Of a stretch of DNA of 64,000 bases, positions 1 to 56,750 are shown one piece after another. The notes under the pieces were generated by a model. The model saw only the letters and a program-made list of their open reading frames with translations, ran no database searches and had not been told where the DNA came from. The stretch's first letter is position 1, and every line of letters begins with the position of its first letter. The DNA comes from Candidatus Falkowbacteria bacterium. GTDB lineage: Bacteria; Patescibacteriota; Patescibacteriia; Patescibacteriales; VMTK01. The position numbers and the translations under genes are program-made. The stretch covers positions 18,484 to 82,483 of the forward strand of contig VMTK01000005.1 in the NCBI GenBank assembly GCA_013791585.1, in the 5' to 3' direction.

Positions 1-1603
1 GTTTCGGCAAATTTTCTTTCAGAGTATGGACAATCTCTTTCCCCTGCTTAAAGGCGTCGTCTTCGTAAACTATCATCGCCAAGGACTCAATCGGCTCTTC
101 GGCAACCAGAATATCCATTTTCACGACTTTTACTTCGCGATATCCCAAAAATTCATAATTGATTGAAGCGTAGCCGGAACTGACGCTTTTTATTTTGTCG
201 TAAAAATCAGTTAAAATAGAACTCATGGGAATTTCATAATGCAAAATAACTCTGCTTTCATTGATATATTCAGTATTTTTATACGCGCCTCTTTTGTCCT
301 GCGCCAAAGCCATAACAGCTCCCACATAATCCTTGGGCGTAATAACATCAAGAGAAACCCATGGCTCTTCGGTTTTTTCAATCAATTCCCTGTCCGGAAA
401 TTGCTGGGGCGTTCTGACAACAACTTGCTCGCCGTTATTTTTATACACTTTGTAGGCAACACTGGGCACGGTTACTATTAAATCCAAATTATACTCGCGC
501 CTCAAACGCTCTTGGAATATTTCCAAATGCAGTATGCCTAAAAATCCGCATCTGAAGCCGAAACCCAAAGCATGGGAATGTTCATTTTCATAAATCAAAG
601 CGGAATCGTTAAGCTTTAACTTTTTCATGGCATCGCGCAATTCCTGAAATTCATTGCCCTCCCGCGGAAAAATTCCGGCAAAGACCATCGGCTTAACTTC
701 TTTATATCCTTGTAATGGTTTAATTTCTATTCGCGATTGATTCGTTTTAAATTCGCGATTATTCGCGATTGTTACAGTATCGCCTACGCGGCACTCGCCC
801 ACTTCCTTGAAGCCGGTTATAATATAGCCGATTTCTCCTGTTTTTAATTCTCCCGTAGCCTGATAATCCGGCTTGAAAATGCCGACATCCAAGGCCTCGC
901 TGACTGCTTTCGCGGCCAATAATTTAATTTTATCGCCTTTTTTAATTCCTCCGTCAAATACGCGGACGTATGCCACGACCCCCTTGTATTCATCGTAATT
1001 TGAATCAAAAATCAGCGCCCGCAATATTCCTCCCTCTCCTTGCGAAGGAGAGGGCTGGAGCGAGGTCTTTGGCGCGGGCACGCGTTCAATAACCGCCTGC
1101 AATATCTCCGCCACGCCCTTGCCTGTTTTTCCTGAAGCGTAAATTATTTCATTTTCAGAGCATCCTAATAATTTAATTATTTCATTTTTTACTTTTTCCG
1201 GCTCAGCCGCGGCTAAATCTATTTTATTAACCACCGGAATAATCGTTAAATCCTGCTCAATGGCCAAATACAAATTGGCCAGTGTTTGCGCCTGGATTCC
1301 TTGCGCCGCGTCCACTAATAAAACAGCGCCTTCAACAGCCGCCAATGACCGTGAAACTTCATAGCTAAAATCAACATGGCCGGGAGTATCAATCAAATTC
1401 AAAATATAATTTTCATAATTCATTGTTACAGGCTGCAGTTTTATTGTAATCCCGCGTTCACGCTCAATATCCATCCTATCCAATATTTGCTCTTTCATTT
1501 TTCTTTTTTCAATCGTCCCTGTAATTTCCAGCATCCGATCAGCCAAAGTTGACTTGCCATGGTCTATGTGCGCGATAATGCAAAAATTTCTGATGTTTTT
1601 CAT
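1..1603 (-). CDS. lepA: Elongation factor 4 (LepA), partial; C-terminus lies beyond the window start
   Basis: Reverse translation from the ATG at 1601-1603 gives MKNIRNFCIIAHIDHGKSTLADRML...DTPGHVDFSYEVSRSL...RVPAPK, the LepA GTPase signature. The gene runs off the window edge. It carries an in-frame GC-rich palindromic insertion at about 1029-1085. Confidence 0.9.
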   Translation of the reverse strand, partial: MKNIRNFCIIAHIDHGKSTLADRMLEITGTIEKRKMKEQILDRMDIERERGITIKLQPVTMNYENYILNLIDTPGHVDFSYEVSRSLAAVEGAVLLVDAAQGIQAQTLANLYLAIEQDLTIIPVVNKIDLAAAEPEKVKNEIIKLLGCSENEIIYASGKTGKGVAEILQAVIERVPAPKTSLQPSPSQGEGGILRALIFDSNYDEYKGVVAYVRVFDGGIKKGDKIKLLAAKAVSEALDVGIFKPDYQATGELKTGEIGYIITGFKEVGECRVGDTVTIANNREFKTNQSRIEIKPLQGYKEVKPMVFAGIFPREGNEFQELRDAMKKLKLNDSALIYENEHSHALGFGFRCGFLGILHLEIFQERLRREYNLDLIVTVPSVAYKVYKNNGEQVVVRTPQQFPDRELIEKTEEPWVSLDVITPKDYVGAVMALAQDKRGAYKNTEYINESRVILHYEIPMSSILTDFYDKIKSVSSGYASINYEFLGYREVKVVKMDILVAEEPIESLAMIVYEDDAFKQGKEIVHTLKENLPK

Positions 1604-4842: not shown

Positions 4843-6441
4843 TTAAATAAGGCTTCTTCCCGTCATTTCTTTCGGCTTCGGCAATCCCATGATTTTTAAT
4901 ATGGTCGGCGCTATGTCAGACAATATGCCTTGCGGCTGTATCAAGCTTAAATCCCCTCCCGGAACATCTTGGCTGCCCAATCTGCGGCCTTCAAATTGCT
5001 TGCCCGCCACAATAAACGGCACCGGACTGGCTGTGTGCTCCTTGTCAATCATGCCTGTCTGCATATTAAACATTACTTCAGCATTTCCGTGATCGGCAGT
5101 GACGATAATTACTCCGTCTTTTGCCAAAACGCTCTTTACTGTCTTGCCAAGGCATTTATCCACTGTTTCAATTGCCTTAACCGCTGCCGGAATATTGCCT
5201 GTATGCCCTACCATGTCCGCATTGGCGAAATTAATAAGAATAAAATCGTATAATTCTTCTTCTATCGCTTTAACAACTTTATCCGTAACTTCTATGGCGG
5301 ACATCTCCGGCTTTAAATCATATCTGTCAACATGCGGAGAAGGAACCAGCGCGTGATCCTCGCCCTTGCTTTTTTCCTCGCGGCCCCCGTTAAAAAAATA
5401 AGTTACATGGGCGTATTTTTCAGTTTCCGCTATGCGCATCTGCTTTAAATTTTTGGAAGCCAATATTTCTCCCAAAGTATTGTTTAAAATTTCAGGCGGG
5501 AAAGCTATTGCCGCGGGCAAATTTTTTTCATATTCAGTAAAACAAACAAAACGCAGATCTTTCAAATACTTTTTTCTGCTGAATTTGTCAAAACCGGGCA
5601 AAATAAAAGATTTTGTAATCTCCCTGGCCCTATCCGCCCGGTAATTAAAAAATATCACGCTGTCCGTTGATTCTATCAAAGAAACCGGCTGGCCGTTTTC
5701 CGTAATTACGGTTGGCGCGAATTCTTCGTCGTAAATTTTGTTTTGATAGCTTTTTGTAATTGCGCTTGCAACGTCATCGCTTTTATTTCCAATGCCCTCT
5801 GTCATTGCCAAGTATGCTTTTTCCACCCTATCCCAGCGATTATCTCTGTCCATCGCGTAAAACCTGCCGCAGACAGTGGCTATCCTGCCAGTACCATATT
5901 CCGCCATGCTTCGCTCAAGATCCTTGACAAAATTAATCCCGCTATTATAAGGAGTATCTCTGCCGTCTAAAATAACATGGACAAAAACTTTGCTTACTTT
6001 CTGCTCCTTGGCTAAAACCATCAGCGCCTGAAGATGCTCAAAAGACGCATGCACGCATCCGTTTGATGTTAATCCTATCAAATGCAGCTTGGATTTATTA
6101 TTCTTGGCATGTTCGCAGGCATCTACCAGCGCTTTATTTTTATAAAAACCGCTATCGCTGATAGCTTTGTTGATGCGGGGCAATTCTTGGTAGAGTATTC
6201 TGCCCAAACCCATATTTAAATGGCCTACTTCGCTATTGCCGGCTTCGCCCCATGGCAGCCCGACTGCTTCGCCTGAAGCGCGCAATGTCATGGATGGGTA
6301 TCTGGAAACCAATTCATTAAAAATCGGCGTCTTCGCCAATGTCACGGCATTGCCGCTGTAAGGCGGGGTAATCCCCCATCCGTCCAAAACAACCATAACT
6401 ACCGGTTTAGGACGATTAGATTGTAATTGGCTGTCTATCAT
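4843..6441 (-). CDS. gpmI: 2,3-bisphosphoglycerate-independent phosphoglycerate mutase (paralog 1)
   Basis: VVMVVLDGWGI...NSEVGHLNMGLGRILYQ and the metal-binding C-terminal half ...VTADHGNAEVM... identify iPGM. Confidence 0.9.
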   Translation of the reverse strand: MIDSQLQSNRPKPVVMVVLDGWGITPPYSGNAVTLAKTPIFNELVSRYPSMTLRASGEAVGLPWGEAGNSEVGHLNMGLGRILYQELPRINKAISDSGFYKNKALVDACEHAKNNKSKLHLIGLTSNGCVHASFEHLQALMVLAKEQKVSKVFVHVILDGRDTPYNSGINFVKDLERSMAEYGTGRIATVCGRFYAMDRDNRWDRVEKAYLAMTEGIGNKSDDVASAITKSYQNKIYDEEFAPTVITENGQPVSLIESTDSVIFFNYRADRAREITKSFILPGFDKFSRKKYLKDLRFVCFTEYEKNLPAAIAFPPEILNNTLGEILASKNLKQMRIAETEKYAHVTYFFNGGREEKSKGEDHALVPSPHVDRYDLKPEMSAIEVTDKVVKAIEEELYDFILINFANADMVGHTGNIPAAVKAIETVDKCLGKTVKSVLAKDGVIIVTADHGNAEVMFNMQTGMIDKEHTASPVPFIVAGKQFEGRRLGSQDVPGGDLSLIQPQGILSDIAPTILKIMGLPKPKEMTGRSLI

Positions 6442-6456
6442 ATCAATTTTTATATT

Positions 6457-8085
6457 TTATTTTATAAGACTTTTCCCCGTCATCTCCCGCGGCTTTTCCC
6501 GGCCTATTAATGCTAATATAGTCGGCGCTATATCGGCTAAAACGCCGCTTTTTTTTAATTTAATTTTATTTTTTAATTTTTTATTAACTATAATAAACGG
6601 CACCGGGCTGGATGAATGCTCCGTGTCTATCTCGCCTGTTTCCAAATTTATCATCTCCTCAATATTGCCATGATCGGCGGTGATCAGAACTGTGCCTTCA
6701 AGCTCTAAATAAGCATTGACAATTCTGCTTAAATGCTTGTCAATATGCCGGCAGCACTCTATCCCCGCCTCAAGATTCCCGGTATGCGCGACCATGTCGG
6801 GAGCGGCAAAATTTAAAACAGTAAAATCATATTTCCAACCTCTCCCCTGTCGCTTCGCTCCCCCCCCTCTCCTGATTAGGATAGGGGGCTGAGGGGTGAA
6901 GTTTTTAATTACCGCGCCAGTCAAGCCGGCTGAATTCATTGCCGGAGTTTCATCGTACGATCTTACATTAGGCGACTCAAGTATTATTCTGGACTCTCCG
7001 GCCACGGGACGCGCGTATCCGCCATTAAAAAAATAAGTGACATGAGAATGCTTTTCCTTTTCCGCTATATACAGCTGCTTTAAATCGCGCAATGCCATGG
7101 GCAAAGTTGCTTTTAGGTCAGCGCTGGGATACGCGGATAAAATACTGTCTAAATCCGGCCCAAAATCAGTCATAGCAGCGAATTTTAAATCCTTTAGGAC
7201 TTTCTGGCGCTTAAAAGCTCCCGGATTAATTTTATTAAAGTCATGCTGGACAAAAGCTTTGGCAAGCTGCCTGGCTCTGTCCGACCTTAGGTTGAAAAAA
7301 ATCACGCTGTCGCCGTCATTTATTCTGGGCAATTGCCTGCCATTGCTTTCTATCACATATGGCTGGATAAACTCATCGTTTTCGCCGCTGTTATAAGCTT
7401 TGGTTATCGCGTCCTGCGGGCTTTTGGCTTTTTTCCCCTTACCCAGTACCAAAGCATTATAAGCCTTTTCCGTGCGCCCCCATTTTTTCTTCCTGTCCAT
7501 GGCGTAAAATCTTCCCATAATCGTCGCTACGCGCTCATTTATTAAATAATCTCTTTGAACCGACTCTATTAATTTAAGAGCGGCGTATTGCGGGGAATCG
7601 CGTCCGTCGGTAAATAAATGCAGATAAACCTTTTTTACGTTATATCCTCTGGCTAATGTTACAAGCGCCAGCAGATGATCAGGATCGCTATGCGCGCTCA
7701 TGCCGTTGGAAAGCATGCCCATTAAATGCAGGGCTGATTTATTTTTCTCCACATGCTTGATGGCTTCAAGAAAAGCCGAGTTTTTAAAAAATGTTCCGTC
7801 ATTTATTGTTTTGCAAATTTTAACCGCGTCTTGCTCAACCACCCGCCCCGCCCCTATGTTAATATGCCCCGCCTCGCTATTCCCATCCTGCGCCGGAGGC
7901 AAGCCAACGCATTTCCCGTAAGCGCAAAGTTTTGCGCTTGGGTAATCCTTTATTATCTTATCTAAATAAGGAGTTTTTGACAATGCAATGGCATTGCCAC
8001 TGCTCGGCTTGGCGATCCCCCAGCCGTCCAAGATGATTAGTATCATTGGGAGATTATTGTTTTGATTTTTTTGTTTTATTGACAT
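6457..8085 (-). CDS. gpmI: 2,3-bisphosphoglycerate-independent phosphoglycerate mutase (paralog 2)
   Basis: LPMILIILDGWGI...NSEAGHINIGAGRVVEQ...ITADHGNIEEM is iPGM. The longest ORF starts at 8181, but its first 32 codons are built from the 8-nt repeat and overlap the eno C-terminus, so I place the start at the internal Met (MSIKQKNQ) at 8085. It contains an in-frame GC-rich palindromic insertion at 6841-6900. Confidence 0.8.
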   Translation of the reverse strand: MSIKQKNQNNNLPMILIILDGWGIAKPSSGNAIALSKTPYLDKIIKDYPSAKLCAYGKCVGLPPAQDGNSEAGHINIGAGRVVEQDAVKICKTINDGTFFKNSAFLEAIKHVEKNKSALHLMGMLSNGMSAHSDPDHLLALVTLARGYNVKKVYLHLFTDGRDSPQYAALKLIESVQRDYLINERVATIMGRFYAMDRKKKWGRTEKAYNALVLGKGKKAKSPQDAITKAYNSGENDEFIQPYVIESNGRQLPRINDGDSVIFFNLRSDRARQLAKAFVQHDFNKINPGAFKRQKVLKDLKFAAMTDFGPDLDSILSAYPSADLKATLPMALRDLKQLYIAEKEKHSHVTYFFNGGYARPVAGESRIILESPNVRSYDETPAMNSAGLTGAVIKNFTPQPPILIRRGGGAKRQGRGWKYDFTVLNFAAPDMVAHTGNLEAGIECCRHIDKHLSRIVNAYLELEGTVLITADHGNIEEMINLETGEIDTEHSSSPVPFIIVNKKLKNKIKLKKSGVLADIAPTILALIGREKPREMTGKSLIK

Positions 8086-8125
8086 AATAAAATCATAAAC
8101 AGAAACACTAAAACACTTTTGAATT

Positions 8126-9460
8126 TTAATTTGTTTTTGTGTTTTCCGTGTTTTTGTGTTTTTGTGTTTCAACATCTTCAATCTCCATCAACCGATTATA
8201 CTTAGCCAATCTCTCACCGCGCGACAATGATCCCGCCTTGATATAATCAGCGCCGATCGCTACCGCCAAATCAGCTATGAAATCATCGCAAGTCTCGCCG
8301 CTCCTGTGAGACGCCATTACTTTATAATTATGCTTTTGGGCCAATTTAACGCATTCAATTGTTTCAGTCAATGTGCCTATTTGGTTCGGCTTTATTAAAA
8401 TAGCGTTAGCCGCCCTGTCTTTCAGCCCGGCGCGCAAACGGGCAGTATTTGTCGTGAATAAATCATCTCCTATAATCATCATTTCATCCCCCAGCTCCCG
8501 CGTCAGCTCGCTCCATCCCTCCCAATCATCTTCCGCCAATCCGTCTTCAATGGAAATTATGGGATATTTCCTAAACCATTCATAATATAAATTTATTAAA
8601 GTAGCGGAAGTAAAATTCGCGCGGTCTAATTTAAAAATATATTTCTTGGTTTCTTTATTGTAAAGCCCTGAAGAGCCGACATCAATTCCAATGCCGAAAT
8701 CTTTTCCCGGACTATAGCCGGCGTTAACTCCCGCCGCCATAATAAGCTCAATCGCCTGAATGCTGGAAACAATATCCGGCGCGTAGCCGCCTTCGCTGCC
8801 AACATCAGTATCAAAGCCGGCTTTCCTTAAAACCCGCCCCAATTCATGAAATATTTCCGCGCCCATCCTAACCATTTCCGCAAAACTTTTAATTTGAGCT
8901 CCCCTCTCCCGTGAGGCGCGAGCGGGAGAGGGGTTGGGGGTGAGGGGAATTATCATGAATTCTTGAAAATCCAAATTAGTATCCGCATGTTTGCCGCCGT
9001 TAAAAATATTAAAAGATGGAGTTGGCATCGCATAACGCGTAACGCGTAACGCATAACACTTATTTATATATTCATATAATTCTTGGTTTTTAGACATGGC
9101 CGCGGCGCGGGCGCAGGCAAAGGATACGCTTAAAATAGCGTTGGCGCCTAATCTTTTTTTGTTTTTCGTCCCGTCCAGTTTTATCATTGTTTCATCTATC
9201 TTTTCTTGTTCGCTTGCATCAACTCCTTTTAATTCAGGCCCTATTTTTTCTTGAACATTTTTTACCGCTTTCAGCGCTCCCAAGCCGCCGTAGCGCTTAT
9301 TGCCATCGCGCAATTCCAACGCTTCATGAATTCCCGTGGAAGCGCCGGAAGGCGCGCTGGCTTTGGCGATTATGCCATTATCCAGAATAACTTTTGTTTC
9401 AATTGTCGGATTGCCGCGCGAATCCAAAATTTCGCGGGCGGTTATTTGTTTGATTTTCAT
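8126..9460 (-). CDS. eno: Enolase
   Basis: MKIKQITAREILDSRGNPTIETKVILDNGIIAKASAPSGASTGIHEALELRDG is canonical enolase. It carries two in-frame repeat insertions (palindromic element 8898-8952; TTATGCG heptamers 9020-9055) and a C-terminal tail encoded by the 8-nt repeat. Confidence 0.95.
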   Translation of the reverse strand: MKIKQITAREILDSRGNPTIETKVILDNGIIAKASAPSGASTGIHEALELRDGNKRYGGLGALKAVKNVQEKIGPELKGVDASEQEKIDETMIKLDGTKNKKRLGANAILSVSFACARAAAMSKNQELYEYINKCYALRVTRYAMPTPSFNIFNGGKHADTNLDFQEFMIIPLTPNPSPARASRERGAQIKSFAEMVRMGAEIFHELGRVLRKAGFDTDVGSEGGYAPDIVSSIQAIELIMAAGVNAGYSPGKDFGIGIDVGSSGLYNKETKKYIFKLDRANFTSATLINLYYEWFRKYPIISIEDGLAEDDWEGWSELTRELGDEMMIIGDDLFTTNTARLRAGLKDRAANAILIKPNQIGTLTETIECVKLAQKHNYKVMASHRSGETCDDFIADLAVAIGADYIKAGSLSRGERLAKYNRLMEIEDVETQKHKNTENTKTN

Positions 9461-9608
9461 ATAAAATAAATAAGAACGAGAAGAAAAATAAGGTAAATAA
9501 GAAGCAAGCTGCGTCTTATTTTTATTTTTCTCATTTATCTTTTTATTTCCCGATGTGCGAATCAGGATCCCGAATTCTGCGTTAGCAGAACATCGGGGCT
9601 TATTTTTC

Positions 9609-10580
9609 TTAAAATATTAATAATTTTCCTTCCCCGGCCGGGTTGTAGCCATTCTTAACTTCATCACCGTCTGAATATCCGTCATTGTCCGTGTCGCTTA
9701 ATTCCGAATTTGTAAAATAAATATTATTCTCATCATAGTCAGAAAGACCGTCATCATCAGAATCTATTAAATTTGAACATTGTTCATCTAAGCAGCTACT
9801 TTTTAACTGCTCATCGCGATTTTTACCCATATCAAATTCTTCATCGCAATCTTCAGGGCAATTGCATTTATTTTCCCATTCTTCACAGATTGAATTTCCA
9901 CACTCAGAACATACTGTTCCAACATCAAATAAATTGTAACATTCTCCATCTTTGTAATCCTTGACAGGAATTTTTAACAACCCCTCACAACAACTGTTAG
10001 ATCCAATATAGATTCCATGACTATATTTATCCGCGCTTTCTCCTGCAGAAATACAAGATTTTTCATTATCATGCTCAGCAAACTCGCATTTATTATCCTC
10101 GCAAACCGCTTTTCCTTCTTGGCAAGCATACAGAGTAATGCAAGCTCTATTGCCGCAATTTTCATTTAAATTTTTCTCCCACTCATCAAGATAAAGCAGG
10201 TTAATCGCGGTCTGCGTTCCGCCGGAATTGCAGCTGCAGCAGTCTTCCCGCGTTTCAGCGCAGTCTGAATTATTCAAACATTTTTTCCATTCATCAAACA
10301 AAGCTATTTTTTTCTGACTATTTCTTTTTTCAGGAATGCCGGCGATATTCTCCTGTAACTTTCCCGTGATGCTGATTATGTCCTCTAAAATATATTGGCT
10401 CGCGTACATTGCGATCATAGCCGCTAAAAAACTGGCGGAAATTCCAACAACTAAATATATTCTGCCTCGCCGCCTGCCGTCTTTTTCCAGCTTATTTACT
10501 CTTTCGTTTAAGACATTGCCTTCATTGCTCGGCTGCTCAATAATTTGTTGATTATGATTTTTTTTAAAGATGTTGAACAT
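9609..10580 (-). CDS. Membrane-anchored Cys-rich protein with C-terminal thrombospondin-type-3-like Ca-binding repeats
   Basis: It has an N-terminal TM segment and many Cys residues. The C-terminus has two DxDxDG-type motifs (DSDDDGLSDYDE and DTDNDGYSDGDE). Confidence 0.5.
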   Translation of the reverse strand: MFNIFKKNHNQQIIEQPSNEGNVLNERVNKLEKDGRRRGRIYLVVGISASFLAAMIAMYASQYILEDIISITGKLQENIAGIPEKRNSQKKIALFDEWKKCLNNSDCAETREDCCSCNSGGTQTAINLLYLDEWEKNLNENCGNRACITLYACQEGKAVCEDNKCEFAEHDNEKSCISAGESADKYSHGIYIGSNSCCEGLLKIPVKDYKDGECYNLFDVGTVCSECGNSICEEWENKCNCPEDCDEEFDMGKNRDEQLKSSCLDEQCSNLIDSDDDGLSDYDENNIYFTNSELSDTDNDGYSDGDEVKNGYNPAGEGKLLIF

Positions 10581-10614: not shown

Positions 10615-10712
10615 TTTCTTATTTTTATTATTTTATTATTTTATTATTTTTATTATTTTATTATTTTTATTATTTTATTATTTTTATTATTTTATTATTT
10701 TATTTCACAATC
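10615..10712. repeat. (ATTATTTT)n microsatellite, about 12 units
   Basis: Direct tandem repeat ttattttattatttt... in the gap between the pgk stop and the upstream gene. Confidence 0.9.
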
Positions 10713-11992
10713 CCTTTCAGCCCGGGCATTTTTTCTCCGCTTAAAAAGGCCAGCATGGCTCCTCCGCCGGTTGATACCCAGTCAACATAATCAATCATTT
10801 TTGTCTGCCTTAAAGCTTCCACTGTTTCCCCTCCTCCAACTATTCCAAACGCGCGGCCCCGCGAACGGGACGCCACTGCGCGGGCGATTGACAAAGTGCC
10901 ATGCTTGAAATTGTCTTGTTCAAACATTCCCATCGGCCCGTTCCAAACTATAGTATTGGCTTTTTTTATAAAACCGGAATACAATCCTATGGTTTTGGGG
11001 CCGATATCTAAAATCTTCTCGCTCTTTTTTACATCGTACGCGTTTTTAACTTCCGGCTCTTTATTTCCTTTGCCTTTGCCGACCACAACATCTATCGGCA
11101 AAATAATATTTGCGCCGCCGCCGCGATTTTTATTTTTCAATGCTTTCGCGAGCGTAACATTTTTTTCATCCGCTGCCGACTTGCCGATTTCCATGCCGTG
11201 AGCCGCGAAAAAATTATTAGCCAAGGCCCCGCCGATTAAAATATGGCTCGCTTTCCTGCGCAGTTTTTTTATTAATTTTATTTTAGTGTTAATTTTAGCT
11301 CCGCCGATTACCACAATCAGCGGCTTTTTAGGAAACAGGACTTTGCTTAAATTTTCCAGCTCTTCTTGCAGAAGCAGGCCGGCATACGAAGGTAAATATC
11401 TTTTTATCGCGCTTAATGAAGCATGCTTCCTATGGCTTGCGGCAAAAGCGTTATTAACATAAACCCCGCGCCTTTTAGGCAGAATATTTTTAATATTGTT
11501 AGACAGCTGTCCAAAAGGCGCGGGGTGAATATCAGCCAAACGAGATAATCGCTTGGCGAATTTTTTATCATTTTGCTCTTCCTCTTTATGAAATCTAAGA
11601 TTTTCAAGAAGCATTATTTCCCCTTCTTTTAATTTACCTGCTTCTTCCTCTGTCTTTTTCCCTATGCAATCAGGAACAAATTTTATTCTCTTGCCCAAAA
11701 TCTTGCCCAGCCGAACAGCAATCGGCTTAACAGAATGTGTTTTTGTGTTTTTGTGTTTTTGTGTTTTTGTGTTTGCGCGCGGCCGCCCCAAATGCGTTGC
11801 GATAATTATCTTGCATTTATGCCTCAAAAGAAAACGGATAGTCGGCAAGCAAGAAATTATCTTATAATCATCCAATATATCCGACATCCGACATCCGACA
11901 TCCGACATCCGAAATGGAACATTAAAATCAGCCCGTAAAAAAACTCTTTTGCCTTTTATGTTTTTGGCGTTTCTAATTGATTTAATCTTCAT
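10700..11992 (-). CDS. pgk: Phosphoglycerate kinase
   Basis: KGKRVFLRADFNVP, LENLRFHKEEE and C-terminal GGGAMLAFLSGEKMPGLK are pgk motifs. It carries in-frame repeat insertions RMSDVGCRMSDI (CGGATGT heptamers, 11876-11925) and TKTQKHKNTKT (8-mers, 11736-11775). Confidence 0.9.
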   Translation of the reverse strand: MKIKSIRNAKNIKGKRVFLRADFNVPFRMSDVGCRMSDILDDYKIISCLPTIRFLLRHKCKIIIATHLGRPRANTKTQKHKNTKTHSVKPIAVRLGKILGKRIKFVPDCIGKKTEEEAGKLKEGEIMLLENLRFHKEEEQNDKKFAKRLSRLADIHPAPFGQLSNNIKNILPKRRGVYVNNAFAASHRKHASLSAIKRYLPSYAGLLLQEELENLSKVLFPKKPLIVVIGGAKINTKIKLIKKLRRKASHILIGGALANNFFAAHGMEIGKSAADEKNVTLAKALKNKNRGGGANIILPIDVVVGKGKGNKEPEVKNAYDVKKSEKILDIGPKTIGLYSGFIKKANTIVWNGPMGMFEQDNFKHGTLSIARAVASRSRGRAFGIVGGGETVEALRQTKMIDYVDWVSTGGGAMLAFLSGEKMPGLKGIVK

Positions 11993-26942: not shown

Positions 26943-28142
26943 TTATGCGGCAATAATCCCCCCTCCCAGCACTTCATCCTCATTATTATAATTCGCATGC
27001 GCGTTATTTGTAGCAGCGCGTCTAATCCCATAAAATACAACGCTTTGGCCCGGCGTTACAGCCCTTTGCGGCTGAGAAAACGCTACAGCCACCGAGTGGC
27101 TCTTAAAGCCACTCGGTGGCTTCGTAACTTTACACTTAACCGGCTTGTGCCTGTATCTGATAACTGCTTGGCAGGACAACGGCAGTCTCGGCTCTTTGCC
27201 TGAAATCCAGTTCACATCGCCGGCAATCAATTCTCTGCTGTACAAAACAGAATCATCCCTATCACTAACCACATATAGCGTATTGGTTTTATAATCGCAT
27301 TTGGCAGCATAAAAAGGCCCGATGCCGCCAATTTCCACTCCCTTTCTTTGCCCGATAGTGTAAAGCGGCAGGCCCTGATGCTCGCCGATAACCTCCCCTA
27401 ACCCCTCCTTGGCAAGGAGGGGAACGCGGAGCGACTCCGCCATTTTTCTCCCCTTACCAAGGGGAGATGCCCGAAGGGCAGAGGGGTAAGGGGTGAGGGC
27501 AACAATCGGCCCTGGTTTTAACTTGATATGCTCGCGCAAAAAATCATTATGATCGCCTTTTAAAAAACAAACATCCTGGCTTTCTTTTTTTACATAAGGC
27601 AATTTTGCTTTGTCCGCGATTTTTCTAACTTCCTCTTTCGTGTACTCGCCCAAAGGAAATAAAACCCGCGCCAGCTGTTTCTGCGTCAAATTATAAAGAA
27701 AATAGCTCTGATCCTTGCCCTCATCTTTCCCGCGATATAACTTATAAATCAATTCTGTTTTTGTGTTTTTGTGTTTTTGTGTTTTTGTGTAGTGTCCCGT
27801 TGCCAAAAAATCCGCGCCGATCTCGCGAGCGCCCTTGAGTAGCGCGCCAAATTTAATAAGCCGATTACACCTTGCGCAAGGATTCGGCGTTAAGCCGCGA
27901 GCATAACTTTCTAAAAAATAATCAATCACTTCTTTTTTAAATTGGTCGGCGTAATTTACCGGATAAAATTTAACGCCTAATTTGGCGCAAACGCGGCGCG
28001 CGGCCTGCTCGTCATCGCTATTATTTGCCAACCGCATAAACATGCCGATAACTTCATATCCTTGTTTCTGCAATAAAAAAACCGCCGCCGAAGAATCAAC
28101 TCCGCCGGACATGGCGATCACAACTTTTAAACATTTAGGCAT
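26943..28142 (-). CDS. mnmA: tRNA-specific 2-thiouridylase MnmA
   Basis: PP-loop SGGVDSS and CARCNRLIKFGALL identify MnmA. Two in-frame insertions: a roughly 110-nt GC-rich palindromic element (27393-27502) and 8-nt repeats (27764-27791; TKTQKHKNTKT). Confidence 0.9.
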   Translation of the reverse strand: MPKCLKVVIAMSGGVDSSAAVFLLQKQGYEVIGMFMRLANNSDDEQAARRVCAKLGVKFYPVNYADQFKKEVIDYFLESYARGLTPNPCARCNRLIKFGALLKGAREIGADFLATGHYTKTQKHKNTKTELIYKLYRGKDEGKDQSYFLYNLTQKQLARVLFPLGEYTKEEVRKIADKAKLPYVKKESQDVCFLKGDHNDFLREHIKLKPGPIVALTPYPSALRASPLGKGRKMAESLRVPLLAKEGLGEVIGEHQGLPLYTIGQRKGVEIGGIGPFYAAKCDYKTNTLYVVSDRDDSVLYSRELIAGDVNWISGKEPRLPLSCQAVIRYRHKPVKCKVTKPPSGFKSHSVAVAFSQPQRAVTPGQSVVFYGIRRAATNNAHANYNNEDEVLGGGIIAA

Positions 28143-32569: not shown

Positions 32570-32810
32570 TGTCGCAATTACTGAACGAAGCTCGAACCTT
32601 TTTTGAACAAAACTCCGACTGATTGCTCCCGCCGTTGGCGGGACGGCAGAAACTAAACGCTCGGGCGGGCAAAAAGCGAAGTCCCATACCGAACTTGTTC
32701 TGGTGCGGGGGAAGGGGGTTGGGGGGAAGGAATTTTTGCCCGCCCTTGCTTTCCGATTCCAATTTTTCCGCCGCCGCCGCATTTCGTGCCAGTGAAACTG
32801 GCGCGCCGCC
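32570..32810 (+). ncRNA. GC-rich structured repeat element, copy 1 (inverted relative to copies 2 and 3)
   Basis: It is the reverse complement of 35643-35880 and of 46543-46826. Conserved core gggcgggcaaaaa...tttttgcccgccc plus hairpins with compensatory substitutions. The embedded ORFs are taken to be spurious. Confidence 0.5.
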
Positions 32811-35642: not shown

Positions 35643-36070
35643 GGCGGCGCATTTCGCAAAGCGAAATACGAAATTCGGCGGCGGCGGAAAAATCGGAATC
35701 GGAAAGCAAGGGCGGGCAAAAATTCCTTCCCCCCAACCCCCTTCCCCCGCACCAGAACAAGTTCGGTATGGGACTTCGCTTTTTGCCCGCCCGAGCGTTC
35801 AGTTTCTGCCGTCCCGCCAACGGCGGGAGCAATCAGTCGGAGTTTTGTTCAAAAAAGGTTCAAAATTAAAAAAGCAATTCCGCCCCTAAATTCAAAGGCA
35901 AAGGCGGGCAAAAAAGGAAGGGGTTTTTTTTTGGGGGGGGAGGGAAATTTTTGCCCGCCGTGCCTTCCTCCCGCCGGAGCATGTCCCGCACACCGATGCG
36001 GGAACGGGCTAATCCGCCTCTTTTTTAAGCCAAGATTATTTTTCGTGCCAATATCATTGGCGCGCCGCCT
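35643..36070 (-). ncRNA. GC-rich structured repeat element, copy 2 (composite; contains a second degenerate core)
   Basis: It shares the core with copies 1 and 3 and sits about 100-500 nt upstream of the XRE gene. Confidence 0.5.
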
Positions 36071-48721: not shown

Positions 48722-48761
48722 AAAAATTCACTTTAATTAATAGTTATAAAGTTATATTGTT

Positions 48762-48805
48762 ATGCGTTATGCGTTATGCGTTATGAGTTATGCGTTACGC
48801 GAAAA
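48762..48805. repeat. TTATGCG heptamer array
   Basis: gttatgcgttatgcgttatgcgttatgagttatgcgttacgcg lies between the ppiB-like gene and cca. Confidence 0.9.
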
Positions 48806-50380
48806 TCACTTCACCCAAAATTCTTTCTTCAGTTCGCTGTCATCTTCCATTTTTCTGTCTTCAATTTTTTCTTTGGCTTGGCCGCGCAATTCTTTTAATT
48901 CCATTTTATTCAATTCTTGGCTTCTGTTTTCTAAATATTCTTTATTATTCAGATCAGGATCATCAACCACTTCGGACAGCAAAACATCCAAAATAGCGCC
49001 GATTTTAGGACTTGGCTGGATTTTTAATAATTTCATTAATTCGTCTCCGTTTATTTTCAGCATTTTTACGGACAGCGGATCCTGGCGCACTTTTTCCATC
49101 ATATATTCCAGATGGCGGAGCTTATACGGCTTGGCTTTCGGCACGCCGGAACCGAGCCGGTCCGCTATCCGCAGATCAATCAAGTCTTTCAAGTTTTCTT
49201 CTCCTACTTTTTTAATCAAGCGCCGCACCGAGCTGGCTGTCACTTCATCAACATTATAATAAAACATGTGGTTGCGTATCAAGGCCGCGACTTTTTCAAT
49301 CTCATCATTGGAAAACTTCATCCGGCTCATAATCTTCTTGGCGATTTTCGCGCCTACTATGTCATGATTATAAAAAGTGGCGCCGCCGTTGATAATTTTT
49401 TTTGTCTGCGGCTTGGCAATATCATGAAGCAGCGCGGCAAGCTTGACGCGCCAATCATTGCTTGGACAGAATTTCAATGACAATACGCAATGCCTGAAAA
49501 CAGAATGAATATGATGCTTGCATTGCCCCACCCCCACTCCTCTTTCCAGCTCCGGCATAATATACTGAAGCAATTTATTTTGATGCAAAAACATTATGCC
49601 TTCGTAAGCTTTATTAGACTTTAATATTTTAATCAACTCATCTTTTATTCTTTCATTGGCAATGAATTTTATGCCGCCGGCCATTTTCTTTATCGCCCGC
49701 TCGGTTTTCGGCTCAATGTCAAAATTCAACTCGCAAGCCAGGCGAATCGCCCGCATCATGCGCAAAGCGTCTTCCTTAAACCTGTCGGACGGCTCCCCTA
49801 CCGCCCTGATAATCCTTTTTTTAATATCTTTCTGCCCGCCGAATAAATCAATAATTTGAAAATTATCATTTTTAACTCCCTTCTCCCGTGAAGCGATAGC
49901 GGGAGAGGGGCTGGGGGTGAGGGCAACAGCCATTGCGTTTATCGTAAAATCGCGCCTGGACAAATCCTTCTCCAAACTATCCTCAAATCTAACCTCATCC
50001 GGGTGCCTCCTGTCAGAATATCCCTGTTCACTGCGATAAGTCGTCACCTCAACAACTGTCTTGTTTTCGTCCTCCTTCGCTAATGCTTCGGCGGATAAAT
50101 GTTTTCGTGTTTTCGTGTTTTCGCGTTTTCGCGTTTTCGTGTTTTCGCGTTCTACGGGAATTATCACAGTCCCAAAAACATTCTCATACTTTCCATCAGG
50201 AAAAATCTTTAAAATTTCTTCCGGCTTGGCATTAGTGGTAATGTCCCAATCTTTAGGTATAATGGAGCGCAATAAATCACGCACGCATCCGCCAACCGCA
50301 TACGCTTCATGGCCTGCTTGCTCCAGTTTGTCTATTATATTTTTTATATATTCTGGTATTTTCATATTAAAACTATACAA
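48806..50380 (-). CDS. cca: CCA-adding enzyme / tRNA nucleotidyltransferase with HD domain
   Basis: N-terminal AGHEAYAVGGCVRDLLRSIIPKDWDITT (polymerase-beta NTase) and an HD domain (LHDIAKP...). In-frame 8-nt repeat (50099-50157, ENTKTRKRENTKTRKH) and palindromic element (49874-49925). Confidence 0.85.
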   Translation of the reverse strand: MYSFNMKIPEYIKNIIDKLEQAGHEAYAVGGCVRDLLRSIIPKDWDITTNAKPEEILKIFPDGKYENVFGTVIIPVERENTKTRKRENTKTRKHLSAEALAKEDENKTVVEVTTYRSEQGYSDRRHPDEVRFEDSLEKDLSRRDFTINAMAVALTPSPSPAIASREKGVKNDNFQIIDLFGGQKDIKKRIIRAVGEPSDRFKEDALRMMRAIRLACELNFDIEPKTERAIKKMAGGIKFIANERIKDELIKILKSNKAYEGIMFLHQNKLLQYIMPELERGVGVGQCKHHIHSVFRHCVLSLKFCPSNDWRVKLAALLHDIAKPQTKKIINGGATFYNHDIVGAKIAKKIMSRMKFSNDEIEKVAALIRNHMFYYNVDEVTASSVRRLIKKVGEENLKDLIDLRIADRLGSGVPKAKPYKLRHLEYMMEKVRQDPLSVKMLKINGDELMKLLKIQPSPKIGAILDVLLSEVVDDPDLNNKEYLENRSQELNKMELKELRGQAKEKIEDRKMEDDSELKKEFWVK

Positions 50381-55497: not shown

Positions 55498-55660
55498 TTT
55501 TCGCGTTTTCGTGTTTTCGTGTTTTCGTGTTTTTGTGTTTTCGTGTTTTGAGGCGAAGCCGAGTGTTTTCGTGTTTTGAGGCGAAGCCGAGTGTTTTTGT
55601 GTTTTGAGGCGAAGCCGAGTGTTTTCGTGTTTTGAGGCGAAGCCGAGTGTTTTTGTGTTT
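55498..55660. repeat. Tandem repeat block: about five 8-nt units followed by four 28-bp units (gaggcgaagccgagtgttttYgtgtttt)
   Basis: Direct repeats with no spacers lie between ftsL and rsmH. Confidence 0.9.
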
Positions 55661-56624: not shown

Positions 56625-56629
56625 AACTC

Positions 56630-56750
56630 GTTACGAGTTATGCGTTATGCGTTATGCGTTATGCGTTATGCGTTATGCGTTATGCGTTATGCGTTATGCG
56701 TTATGCGTTATGCGTTATGCGTTATGCGTTATGCGTTACGAGTTATGCAC
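56630..56750. repeat. Long TTATGCG heptamer array (about 15 units)
   Basis: gttatgcgttatgcg... lies immediately upstream of rsmH. Confidence 0.95.

What the first reader, a model, noticed from the sequence alone, without database searches (positions are those of the whole stretch)
8898..8952. GC-rich palindromic elements inserted in frame into conserved housekeeping genes (RPE-like)
At least five genes carry a related GC-rich palindrome followed by a GGYTGGGGGTGAGGG-type tail, each time preserving the reading frame. The copies are lepA 1029-1085 (ccctctccttgcgaaggagaggg), gpmI-2 6841-6900, eno 8898-8952 (cccctctcccgtgaggcgcgagcgggagagggg + ttgggggtgagggg), mnmA 27393-27502 (about 110 nt with two hairpins) and cca 49874-49925 (cccttctcccgtgaagcgatagcgggagagggg + ctgggggtgagggc). 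The encoded peptides are Pro/Ser/Gly/Arg-rich (for example PLTPNPSPARASRERGAQ in enolase, ALTPSPSPAIASREKGV in CCA, and TSLQPSPSQGEGG in LepA where most LepAs have a short loop). A degenerate intergenic copy lies at 39075-39170. This is the behaviour described for Rickettsia palindromic elements (RPEs). I am not aware of it in this kind of genome.
Basis: partly seen in the sequence, partly recalled or inferred. Interest (0 to 1): 0.8.

Follow-up and report, generated by a model that had tools for sequence, protein, structure and literature searches.

The report
Triplex-motif repeats inserted inside essential genes
Five housekeeping genes of an uncultured Candidatus Falkowbacteria (candidate phyla radiation, CPR) bacterium carry in-frame copies of a GC-rich repeat that is already known from many bacteria as E. 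coli "BoxC" or the "intrastrand triplex motif", but had been described as intergenic, and the repeat turns out to sit next to genes for a small DUF559 endonuclease in several phyla.

Summary
lepA, gpmI-2, eno, mnmA and cca each carry a GC-rich palindrome in frame. Each is an 8-33 aa insertion relative to solved homologues. The eno copy is identical in four independent assemblies.

The behaviour resembles Rickettsia palindromic elements (RPEs), but the element is not an RPE and is not lineage-specific. Its core (CCCCTCTCCC-loop-GGGAGAGGGG-YT-GGGGGTGAGGG) is the G/C-rich intrastrand triplex motif (TM, TMECO, BoxC, PIT) of Holder et al. 2015. A 22-mer scan found it across at least eight phyla.

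Three things appear new:
- **Location.** All five copies lie inside coding sequence, in a ~38% GC Candidatus Falkowbacteria genome. In E. coli K-12 all 23 copies are intergenic.
- **Hotspots.** Orthologues 76-88% identical carry no insert, the same insert or an unrelated repeat-derived insert at the same codon positions in enolase, CCA enzyme and iPGM.
- **DUF559 link.** TMs flank DUF559 (Vsr-like endonuclease) genes in several phyla, including Falkowbacteria contigs with the window's long-loop subfamily. This suggests a repeat-plus-enzyme pair like REP/RAYT. Causality is not shown.

The claimed intergenic copy at 39075-39170 is not supported.

The parts
1030..1066 (+). TM copy in lepA (gene on - strand). 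C arm CCCTCTCC 1032-1039, loop TTGCGAA, G arm GGAGAGGG 1047-1054, CT, decayed third block GGAGCGAGG 1057-1065. Short-loop subfamily. Encodes ..SLQPSPSQGEGG..
   Evidence: It is an 8-aa insertion relative to LepA structures 2ywe and 5imq, at the linker between the G domain and domain II. It has 8/8 Watson-Crick pairs and 6/8 triads. The mRNA hairpin folds at -21 kcal/mol. The same short-loop hairpin type occurs in the enolase of relative L125.
6839..6901 (+). TM-derived insert in gpmI-2 (gene on - strand). Inner hairpin CCCCCTCTCCT-gatt-AGGATAGGGGG (6863-6888), CT, third block GAGGGGTGAAG (6891-6901), plus an outer C-rich block 6839-6850 that pairs with the tail (palindromic TM form). Encodes FTPQPPILIRRGGGAKRQGRGW.
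   Evidence: It is an 18-aa insertion relative to iPGM structures. The nested fold is -31.8 kcal/mol. The same site carries a larger multi-TM insert in L127 and an unrelated insert in L126. The paralogue gpmI-1 has none. Similarity to the eno copy is marginal (17 of 500 shuffles).
8898..8948 (+). Intact TM in eno (gene on - strand). C arm CCCCTCTCCC 8901-8910, 13-nt spacer (gTGAGGCGCGAGc), G arm GGGAGAGGGG 8924-8933, TT, third block GGGGGTGAGGGG 8936-8947. Encodes (P)LTPNPSPARASRERGA, a net 45-nt (15-codon) insertion.
   Evidence: There is a 13-15 aa gap against enolase structures. An empty site exists in orthologue L127 (81% identity), and related but different TM inserts in L126 and L125. 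It forms 10/10 triads. The AlphaFold2 model gives residues 173-190 low pLDDT (177-181 below 50) and no secondary structure, between strand 167-172 and helix 193-213. The mRNA hairpin is -23.5 kcal/mol, z = -3.6. The core is identical in 4 assemblies.
27392..27500 (+). Composite insert in mnmA (gene on - strand). It holds an inverted TM (CCTCCCCTAACCCCTCCTTggcAAGGAGGGG, 27392-27422, triplex strand on -, TTA-type linker), hairpin GCGGAGcgaCTCCGC 27426-27440, hairpin TCTCCCCTTaccAAGGGGAGA 27447-27467, hairpin TGCCCgaaGGGCA 27468-27480, and third-block tail GAGGGGTAAGGGGTGAGGGC 27481-27500. Encodes 33 extra residues (216-248).
   Evidence: The MnmA structure alignment breaks at residues 215/249. 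The tail matches the motif with 2 mismatches. Similarity to the eno copy scores 34, with 0 of 500 shuffles reaching it. The fold is -63.7 kcal/mol, z = -3.6. Inverted pairs of TMs are a described configuration in E. coli (PMC4666352).
49876..49923 (+). Intact TM in cca (gene on - strand). C arm CCCTTCTCCC 49878-49887 (one G:T position), 13-nt spacer (gTGAAGCGATAGc), G arm GGGAGAGGGG 49901-49910, CT, third block GGGGGTGAGGG 49913-49923. Encodes ALTPSPSPAIASREKGV.
   Evidence: It is an 18-aa insertion relative to CCA-adding enzyme structures 6ibp and 1miv. It forms 9/10 triads. Similarity to the eno copy scores 71, with 0 of 500 shuffles reaching it. The insert is shared by homologues P0123 and P0127, replaced by an unrelated insert in P0122 (88% identity), and absent in P0179 and P0183.

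Best explanation
**What it is.** The five segments are copies, in different states of decay, of the pan-bacterial G/C-rich intrastrand triplex motif repeat (TM, TMECO, E. coli BoxC, PIT). The motif has three blocks:
- a pyrimidine arm (CCCCTCTCCC);
- its purine complement (GGGAGAGGGG);
- a G-rich third block (GGGGGTGAGGG) that mirrors the purine arm.

On one strand this gives a hairpin that can accept the third block as a purine-motif triplex.

**Shown.**
- In this Candidatus Falkowbacteria (CPR/Patescibacteria) genome the copies lie inside lepA, gpmI-2, eno, mnmA and cca.
- They are in frame, with the C-rich strand as sense.
- They lie at loops or domain linkers, and orthologues with empty sites exist.
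- They encode Pro/Ser/Thr/Gly/Arg-rich segments. The enolase segment is predicted to be an unstructured loop.

**Inferred (insertion and retention).**
- Copies are inserted or copied more or less at random.
- Only copies survive that are a multiple of three in length, sit in a stop-free frame (4-5 of the 6 frames are open) and fall in a permissive loop.
- This genome tolerates such copies, as Rickettsia tolerates RPEs.
- The same few permissive loops are then hit or overwritten repeatedly. That would explain the same-site hotspots with different repeat-derived inserts among relatives.

**Inferred, less certain (spread).** Spread depends in trans on DUF559 (Vsr-like PD-(D/E)xK) endonucleases, whose genes are bracketed by TMs of the same genome-specific variant. 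The proposed route is nicking at the TM structure followed by repair or gene conversion from another TM copy. This would be analogous to REP/REPIN elements and their RAYT transposase.
For: **Identity.**
In nearly all it is preceded by a CCCCTC[TG]CCC arm and a loop of mostly 4-6 nt.
- These are the sequences of TMECO in Table 1 of Holder et al. 2015.
- eno and cca form 10/10 and 9/10 triads.
- The third block co-varies as a mirror of the purine arm in other lineages.

**Insertion.**
- Gaps against solved structures.
- An empty enolase site in L127.
- Insert-free CCA homologues and the insert-free paralogue gpmI-1.

**Real and retained.**
- The eno copy is identical in 4 assemblies.
- It is present in enolases of 96% (P0001), 82% (P0003, the enolase of locus L126) and 76% (P0006) identity.

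**Open frames.**

**Loop location.** AlphaFold2 low pLDDT at residues 173-190.

**Same behaviour elsewhere.** TMs lie in frame in Falkowbacteria-like UvrA, cyanobacterial MnmE, a GH38 mannosidase and a radical SAM protein.

**DUF559 link.**
- A DUF559 ORF lies within about 100 nt of a TM, and nowhere else, in 5 of 120 TM-selected genome loci, 5 of 13 metagenome loci and 2 of 53 viral loci.
- 6 of 10 DUF559 loci sampled evenly from plasmid/chromid records have TM-type hairpins within about 150 nt, against 0 in a 12-kb E. coli stretch by the same strict detector. That stretch contains ycjD, whose flanking TMs carry mismatches the detector rejects, so it is only a partial control.
- In four replicons there are 15 TM hairpins in 7.2 kb beside DUF559 against 32 in 154 kb elsewhere.
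- E. coli ycjD ends in a TM-like hairpin and lies about 150 nt from TMECO no. 9.
- Candidatus Falkowbacteria contigs (L139, named through RsmA) carry DUF559 (Pfam 9e-28) flanked by the window's long-loop subfamily.
- TM-DUF559-TM cassettes sit in frame inside a MetRS and a methylase-like ORF.
Against: - The window contains no DUF559 gene, and the rest of this genome was not examined.
- No target-site duplication or defined element ends were seen at the one filled/empty pair compared.
- The orientation of TMs around DUF559 is not constant: inverted in L006 and L084, direct in L139. So they are not classical terminal inverted repeats.
- 4 of 10 sampled DUF559 genes showed no TM with my strict detector.
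- The enrichment statistics count clustered copies as independent.
- DUF559 genes could simply land in, or be retained next to, TMs.
- Holder et al. found no association of TMECO with transposons, phages or plasmids, and no stable triplex in vivo.
- eno and cca have a 13-nt spacer between the arms, outside the 1-6 nt loop definition of the ITxF search.
- lepA and gpmI-2 are too decayed for linear similarity to be significant.
- Translation of the inserts is inferred, not observed.
Confidence: 0.72

Rival explanations
1. The inserts are generated locally rather than by a mobile element. Structure-prone sites at permissive loops undergo replication slippage, template switching or error-prone repair. 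The products are then homogenised towards the genome's TM consensus by gene conversion from other TM copies. DUF559 is only a neighbour.
For: - The same codon-level sites hold unrelated inserts in orthologues 76-88% identical, including inserts derived from the genome's 7- and 8-nt tandem repeats.
- WIN and L125 share the left boundary of the enolase insert but differ inside it.
- No target-site duplication was seen.
- Holder et al. associate TMs with local instability, small deletions and mutation.
Against: - A 50-nt sequence with a conserved 13-nt spacer (TGARGCGNNAG plus flanking G/C) is shared by eno, cca, UvrA of other contigs, DUF559 flanks and even a 67% GC organism. This is hard to generate independently.
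- Exact 22-mers shared across phyla need copying from a template, not slippage.
- Gene conversion needs a first copy at the site.
Confidence: 0.15
2. The inserts are kept because they are useful. They might act as flexible surface peptides, or as DNA/mRNA structures (hairpin, triplex or G-quadruplex: the G-rich strand has four G-runs) that modulate transcription, translation pausing or replication of these housekeeping genes.
For: - Stems are better conserved than the loop between WIN and L126.
- The mRNA hairpins are strong, -21 to -64 kcal/mol with z down to -3.6.
- All five copies have the same orientation and frame.
- The G-rich strand always lies on the template strand, which is also the low-G strand.
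Against: - Close orthologues function without inserts, or with unrelated inserts, at the same site.
- Relatives use other frames (L125 PHPVPLL, UvrA PSPPTPLP).
- Almost all genes in the window are on one strand, so the orientation bias cannot be separated from the gene-strand bias.
- Earlier work found no promoter or terminator activity of PIT/TMECO and no gene-class association.
- The enolase insert is predicted to be disordered.
Confidence: 0.08
3. The elements are members of the Rickettsia palindromic element (RPE) family, or direct relatives acquired by transfer.
For: Only the behaviour matches: palindromic repeats in frame in conserved genes of a small-genome, probably host-dependent bacterium.
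Against: - No NCBIfam model other than the host families matched the five proteins at E up to 10. From memory, that library carries the TIGRFAM RPE domain models, but I did not verify this.
- RPEs are about 105-146 bp (PMC3184786), whereas these are 35-55 nt (mnmA 110).
- The core sequence is that of BoxC/TMECO.
Confidence: 0.02
4. The segments are assembly or binning artefacts, or ancestral conserved sequence.
For: None beyond the source being a metagenome-assembled genome.
Against: - The sequence is identical in four independent assemblies.
- The reading frames are intact in five essential genes.
- The inserts are present in some orthologues and absent in others.
Confidence: 0.01

Closest known systems
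G/C-rich intrastrand triplex motif (TM, TMECO), also known as E. coli BoxC repeat and PIT element (Holder et al. 2015, NAR 43:10126, PMC4666352; Hoyne et al. 2000 and the BoxC literature as cited there)
   Same: - Same three blocks and almost the same letters. TMECO is CCCTCTCCC-loop-GGGAGAGGG-TTA/CCG-GGGTGAGGG. The window has CCCCTCTCCC-...-GGGAGAGGGG-TT/CT-GGGGGTGAGGG.
- Same class II (purine-motif) triad logic.
- Multi-copy, and occurs as inverted pairs (mnmA).
- No transposase inside the element.
- Found across many phyla.
   Different: - In E. coli K-12 all 23 copies are intergenic. Here 5 of 5 lie inside coding sequence and in frame. By my own calculation from these counts, Fisher's exact test gives about 1e-5.
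- The eno and cca copies have a 13-nt spacer between the arms instead of 1-6 nt.
- The host is a ~38% GC CPR genome.
- Same-site turnover with other repeat families has not been described for TMs.
Rickettsia palindromic elements (RPE; Ogata et al. 2000, as listed in PMC3184786)
   Same: Palindromic repeats inserted in frame into conserved protein genes of a reduced genome. The inserts are translated as extra surface segments, and no associated transposase is known.
   Different: - No sequence relationship.
- RPEs are about 105-146 bp and restricted to Rickettsia. TMs are about 35-55 nt, G/C-rich, have a third mirror block and are pan-bacterial.
REP/REPIN elements and their RAYT (TnpA-REP) transposases (PMC3116915)
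   Same: Short GC-rich hairpin repeats dispersed in hundreds of copies. One or a few copies of a small nuclease gene are flanked by the same genome-specific repeat variant. This is the pattern seen here for TM and DUF559.
   Different: - The enzyme is a PD-(D/E)xK Vsr-like endonuclease (DUF559), not an HUH Y1 transposase.
- The repeat has three blocks.
- The TM-DUF559 relationship is only an association found here, not an established system.
Vsr-like homing endonuclease I-Bth0305I (same PD-(D/E)xK clade as Vsr and DUF559 in PMC3424549; PMC3239194)
   Same: It shows that this fold family includes selfish, site-specific homing nucleases. The TM-DUF559-TM cassettes inserted in frame in MetRS and in a methylase-like ORF resemble free-standing homing endonuclease insertions.
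   Different: I-Bth0305I resides in a group I intron of a phage gene. DUF559 here is not in an intron or intein, and its activity and target are unknown.
Small mobile repeats fused in frame to genes in other bacteria (Delihas reviews PMC3184786, PMC2759123). From memory: cyanobacterial small dispersed repeats and heptamer repeats (Elhai et al. 2008)
   Same: The general phenomenon of short repeats with open frames inside or at the ends of genes. The window also teems with 7- and 8-nt tandem repeats, some inside genes.
   Different: Different element families. None of these reports concerns TM/BoxC or CPR bacteria, as far as the searched library shows.

Membership tests
G/C-rich intrastrand triplex motif (TM/TMECO/BoxC/PIT) | Three consecutive blocks on one strand: pyrimidine arm, complementary purine arm, and a third G-rich block that mirrors the purine arm (G*G:C, A*A:T and T*A:T triads). 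Stem 6-15 nt with at most one mismatch. | tested here: met
   eno has 10/10 full triads, cca 9/10 and lepA 6/8. gpmI-2 (4/11 in my register) and the mnmA halves are decayed.
G/C-rich intrastrand triplex motif (TM/TMECO/BoxC/PIT) | Sequence match to the conserved TM consensus (CCCTC[TG]CCC ... GGGAGAGGG ... GGGTGAGGG). | tested here: met
   The eno and cca 22-mer is exactly the sequence found in more than 120 genome loci of many phyla. It matches Table 1 of PMC4666352 block for block.
G/C-rich intrastrand triplex motif (TM/TMECO/BoxC/PIT) | Loops of 1-6 nt between blocks (the ITxF search definition). | tested here: not met
   The second loop is 2 nt (TT or CT) and meets the definition. The first spacer is 13 nt in eno and cca. 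In lepA it is 7 nt (3 nt if the stem is extended), and in gpmI-2 it is 4 nt. This is a search parameter, not a biological boundary. The same long-spacer variant flanks DUF559 genes and also occurs in a 67% GC organism.
G/C-rich intrastrand triplex motif (TM/TMECO/BoxC/PIT) | The single strand forms a stable triplex in vitro (CD, NMR). | not testable with these tools
   Only hairpin energies could be computed. Triplex formation was shown for TMECO by Holder et al..
G/C-rich intrastrand triplex motif (TM/TMECO/BoxC/PIT) | Intergenic location (as described for E. coli). | tested here: not met
   All five window copies lie inside coding sequence. This is a descriptive feature of E. coli copies, not a defining one. 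In-frame copies were also found here in other phyla.
Rickettsia palindromic elements (RPE) | Nucleotide or peptide similarity to an RPE family consensus. | tested here: not met
   No non-host NCBIfam family matched at E up to 10. Caveat: that the library contains the RPE domain models is from memory. The core sequence is that of BoxC/TMECO.
Rickettsia palindromic elements (RPE) | Palindromic repeat inserted in frame in conserved protein genes. | tested here: met
Rickettsia palindromic elements (RPE) | Length about 105-146 bp, with distribution restricted to Rickettsia. | tested here: not met
   The elements are 35-55 nt (mnmA composite 110 nt). The host is Candidatus Falkowbacteria. The RPE size is from PMC3184786.
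MITE (miniature inverted-repeat transposable element) | Terminal inverted repeats matching those of an autonomous element, and target-site duplications. | tested here: inconclusive
   No target-site duplication is visible at the enolase filled/empty pair. TMs flank DUF559 genes, but their orientation is not constant. Only one site pair was compared at the DNA level.
Repeat plus cognate nuclease system (REP/RAYT-like), proposed here for TM plus DUF559 | The nuclease gene is flanked by the same genome-specific repeat variant that is dispersed in the genome. | tested here: met
   Sinorhizobium and Photobacterium (dispersed copies carry the DUF559-flanking variant) and Sphingomonas (its own variant beside DUF559); Falkowbacteria L139; E. 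coli ycjD.
Repeat plus cognate nuclease system (REP/RAYT-like), proposed here for TM plus DUF559 | The nuclease binds or cleaves the repeat and is required for its spread. | not testable with these tools
   No biochemical or genetic data. No paper in the library links DUF559 with BoxC/TM.

The most novel reading that the evidence does not exclude
The pan-bacterial BoxC/triplex-motif repeats are the non-autonomous partners of DUF559 (Vsr-like) endonuclease genes. This would be a widespread selfish repeat-plus-nuclease system analogous to REP/RAYT that has gone unrecognised. In Candidatus Falkowbacteria and related CPR bacteria, this system, together with other short repeats, routinely colonises permissive loops of essential proteins in frame. 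Repeat insertion and turnover would then be a major source of protein length variation in these reduced genomes.
Probability: 0.35. Interest if true: 0.85.

Novelty: new variant of a known kind. Interest (0 to 1): 0.68.

Why it matters
**BoxC/triplex-motif repeats.** They have been known for three decades, and neither their origin nor a mobilising enzyme is known.
- Finding them in frame inside five essential genes of a CPR bacterium shows that the intergenic rule seen in E. coli reflects selection, not mechanism.
- Same-site turnover among close relatives offers natural filled and empty sites for working out how the repeats move.

**DUF559 association.** If it holds, a very common domain of unknown function, including E. 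coli YcjD, gets a testable role. It would also explain why nearly identical 22-mers occur across phyla.

**CPR biology.**
- Much of the length variation of conserved proteins may be repeat-derived insertions in surface loops.
- This matters for annotation, for orthologue alignment and phylogeny, and for structure prediction.
- It parallels Rickettsia, another lineage with a reduced genome.

Tried and rejected
- **Rfam.** No family matches the element in the window or in eight TM-rich loci. Only tRNAs and one sub-threshold chance hit were found.
- **Literature search by sequence string.** The longer blocks found nothing. The 9-mers GGGTGAGGG/CCCTCACCC led to Holder et al..
- **Cyanobacterial small dispersed repeats.** This was my first guess, from memory. 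The paper is not in the library and the idea was not pursued.
- **RPE membership.** Rejected.
- **Intergenic copy at 39075-39170.** Rejected as indistinguishable from shuffles.
- **Extra GGAGAGGG or GGGAGAGGGG hits at 41364, 62850, 26958, 28249 and 47646.** These are single arms without a partner and are not elements.
- **A single obligatory reading frame.** Rejected, because relatives use other frames and 4-5 of the 6 frames are open.
- **A strictly lineage-specific long-loop subfamily.** Rejected, because the same spacer occurs in a 67% GC contig (L133).
- **TMs as classical terminal inverted repeats of a DUF559 transposon.** Not supported, because the flanking orientation varies.
- **DUF559 in the window.** None found.
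- **Phage carriage as the vehicle.** Only 53 viral-contig stretches carry the 22-mer, so this is not a strong lead.
Full report
**1. The observation**

The window has about 38% G+C. Its GC skew is negative throughout, and almost all long ORFs lie on the minus strand.

The tail GGYTGGGGGTGAGGG occurs three times with at most two mismatches, against 0.07 expected and none of 100 shuffles reaching three.

Translations give the quoted peptides. NCBIfam confirms the hosts as enolase, CCA-adding enzyme, MnmA, cofactor-independent phosphoglycerate mutase and LepA/EF4.

Alignment to solved structures shows each segment as a gap in the homologue:

| Gene | Gap against solved homologues |
|---|---|
| eno | 13-15 aa |
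| lepA | 8 aa |
| cca | 18 aa |
| mnmA | 33 aa (residues 216-248) |
| gpmI-2 | 18 aa |

All five copies have the C-rich strand as sense and the same frame through the hairpin arm (CCC TCT CCx). The exact enolase protein occurs on 13 contigs. The 70-nt element core is identical in four independent NCBI and ENA assemblies, so it is not an assembly artefact.

The copies differ in how well they are preserved:
- eno and cca are intact and clearly homologous.
- mnmA is a composite of several hairpins, with one inverted copy.
- gpmI-2 and lepA keep the canonical arms, but their linear similarity to the eno copy is marginal or not significant.
- The intergenic copy at 39075-39170 cannot be told from shuffled sequence.

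**2. The organism**

The enolase and CCA proteins are named by their sources as Patescibacteria group or Candidatus Falkowbacteria. The window therefore comes from a CPR bacterium.

**3. What the element is**

These come from Chloroflexota, Planctomycetota, Cyanobacteria, Alpha-, Beta- and Gammaproteobacteria, Armatimonadota, Acidobacteriota, Bacteroidota, Verrucomicrobiota and others. In nearly all, the 22-mer is preceded by the complementary arm CCCCTC[TG]CCC and a short loop. Rfam has no such family.

A full-text search for the 9-mers led to Holder et al. 2015 (PMC4666352). That paper describes exactly these sequences as a G/C-rich intrastrand triplex motif (TM; TMECO in E. coli; formerly BoxC and PIT). 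Its main findings:
- The motif is present in more than 260 genomes.
- It forms a stable class II triplex in vitro, but a triplex was not detected in vivo.
- In E. coli K-12 there are 23 copies, always located intergenically, often as inverted pairs.
- No link to transposons, phages or plasmids was found.
- The motif is associated with local genomic instability.

The window's eno and cca copies satisfy the triad rule at 10/10 and 9/10 positions. They differ from the published definition in having a 13-nt spacer between the arms. That same spacer recurs in other Falkowbacteria-like contigs and in one 67% GC contig.

Across lineages, the third block changes together with the purine arm so as to remain its mirror. 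Sphingomonas has GGGAGGGG with GGGGGAGGGG. Photobacterium has AAGGGGGAGG with GGAGGGGGTT. This is comparative support for the three-block architecture.

**4. Are the inserts recent, and where do they sit?**

Enolase. Among the 120 best homologues (69-96% identity), about 40% have an insertion at exactly the window's site, after EFMIxPL. The inserts are of several unrelated kinds: TM-type, 'PQPPLLIRRG' type, 'PLLKGG' type and AT-rich palindromes. The rest have none. At the DNA level:
- L127 (81% identity) has an empty site.
- L126 (82%) has the same TM, with changes mostly in the loop.
- L125 (87%) has a short-loop TM read in another frame.

CCA enzyme. The pattern is the same. The insert is shared with P0123 and P0127, replaced by an unrelated insert in P0122 (88% identity), and absent in P0179 and P0183.

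gpmI-2. The same site carries a multi-TM insert in L127 and an unrelated insert in L126, and the paralogue gpmI-1 has none.

Structure. An AlphaFold2 model of the enolase (pTM 0.87) gives the insert low confidence and no secondary structure, between a barrel strand and the next helix.

RNA. The sense RNA forms hairpins of -21 to -64 kcal/mol.

Frames. Four to five of the six frames of the element are free of stop codons. In-frame survival therefore needs only a length that is a multiple of three and a permissive site.

**5. The same behaviour elsewhere**

TMs lie in frame in the following genes:
- a Falkowbacteria-like UvrA;
- a Pseudanabaena MnmE;
- a GH38 mannosidase;
- a radical SAM protein.

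Coding-sequence insertion is thus not unique to this genome. It is unusually dense here, at five events in 64 kb, all of them in coding sequence.

**6. A lead on mechanism: DUF559**

Two of the in-frame cases, a betaproteobacterial MetRS and an Akkermansiaceae methylase-like ORF, contain a whole DUF559 domain (PF04480, a Vsr-like PD-(D/E)xK endonuclease) bracketed by TMs.

Starting from the repeat:
- tblastn found DUF559 ORFs in 5 of 120 TM-selected genome loci, 5 of 13 metagenome loci and 2 of 53 viral loci.
- Each lies within about 100 nt of a TM and is usually flanked on both sides. None lies elsewhere in that sequence.

Starting from the gene:
- 6 of 10 DUF559 loci sampled evenly from plasmid and chromid records have TM-type hairpins within about 150 nt.
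- The detector found nothing in a 12-kb E. coli stretch. That stretch contains ycjD, whose flanking TMs carry mismatches that the strict detector rejects, so it is only a partial control. In the window it found only the known inserts.
- In four replicons there are 15 such hairpins in 7.2 kb beside DUF559 and 32 in 154 kb elsewhere. Clustered copies are not independent, so the P value is only indicative.
- The flanking copies are the same genome-specific variant as the dispersed solo copies.

E. coli K-12: ycjD (DUF559) ends inside a TM-like hairpin, and its last residues are SPSP. A duplicated fragment of its 3' end lies between it and TMECO no. 9.

Candidatus Falkowbacteria contigs carry DUF559 (Pfam 9e-28) flanked by the window's long-spacer subfamily.

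The Vsr/DUF559 clade includes a known homing endonuclease (PMC3424549). No paper in the library connects DUF559 with BoxC/TM.

Several things remain unresolved. The window has no DUF559. The flanking orientation varies. Whether DUF559 mobilises TMs, or merely inserts next to them, is not settled.

**7. Comparison with the known**

The general phenomenon of small repeats fused in frame to genes is known, for RPEs and others (PMC3184786). The element family is known as BoxC/PIT/TM.

The following appear new:
- this family inside essential genes, in frame;
- its occurrence in CPR bacteria;
- codon-level hotspots with turnover among different repeat families;
- the DUF559 association.

It is not an RPE.

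**8. Verdict**

I rate it a new variant of a known kind, of fairly high interest because of the DUF559 lead and the hotspot turnover.

Noticed in passing
enolase homologues P0001-P0120; CCA homologues P0121-P0240; loci L125-L127: The loops that carry TMs in the window are codon-level hotspots. About 40% of the closest enolases, and most of the closest CCA enzymes, carry an insert there. The inserts are of several unrelated kinds (TM long-loop, TM short-loop, PQPPLLIRRG type, PLLKGG type, AT-rich NTRIATN...HEF palindromes, and peptides derived from heptamer repeats). Orthologues 87-88% identical to the window protein have a different insert.
   Followed up: partly
window, e.g. 8132-8169, 11736-11774, 27756-27790, 50100-50151, 55498-55660, 56629-56748, 48759-48801, 10623-10704: The window holds more than 50 short tandem arrays of 7- and 8-nt units (TGTTTTCG/TGTTTTTG, CGTTATG, TTTGAAA, ATCCGAC, TTTTATTA), mostly at gene boundaries. 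Several lie inside genes and are translated as KHKNTKT/ENTKTRKR peptides: the eno C-terminus, the gpmI-2 N-terminus, mnmA, and a roughly 33-aa insert in cca at residues 77-109.
   Followed up: partly
L006 (betaproteobacterial MAG, MetRS) and L084 (Akkermansiaceae MAG): A complete DUF559 endonuclease domain flanked by TMs is inserted in frame. In MetRS it lies between the anticodon-binding and C-terminal tRNA-binding domains. It is also inside a methylase-like ORF. Both look like intein-less homing-endonuclease insertions.
   Followed up: partly
L141 5200-5770 (E. coli K-12 NC_000913.3, about 1351200-1351770): ycjD (DUF559) ends in a TM-like hairpin, with C-terminal residues SPSP. A duplicated fragment of its 3' end lies between it and BoxC/TMECO no. 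9, downstream of fabI.
   Followed up: partly
L152-L154 (Sinorhizobium, Sphingomonas, Photobacterium replicons): Each genome has its own TM sequence variant. The third block co-varies with the purine arm as its mirror image (A replaced by A or T). Photobacterium has long arrays of alternating TMs.
   Followed up: partly
window 32573-32787 and 35668-35882; partial copies 46650-46827 and 35935-35975: 215-nt inverted repeats (94% complementary) bracket two ORFs (482 aa and 243 aa) that have no Pfam match. Partial copies lie near a tRNA gene. The repeat contains a G-rich stretch GGGGGAAGGGGGTTGGGGGG. It may be a separate mobile element.
   Followed up: no
window 9526-9620 and 47402-47496: Another 95-nt repeat pair (88% complementary) in intergenic AT-rich regions next to short tandem repeats.
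   Followed up: no
L139 2094-5047 (Candidatus Falkowbacteria contig): A tandemly duplicated 1613-bp unit carries DUF559, a GIY-YIG nuclease and an ORF6N-domain gene, with TMs between units. The RsmA on the same contig has repeat-derived in-frame inserts (FQFPISNFQ..., PLLTGG...PLIKGE).
   Followed up: partly
window 4843-8181: Two iPGM paralogues lie in tandem downstream of eno. Only the gpmI-2 lineage carries inserts at the hotspot. In L126 the gpmI-1 orthologue has a different insert at another site.
   Followed up: partly
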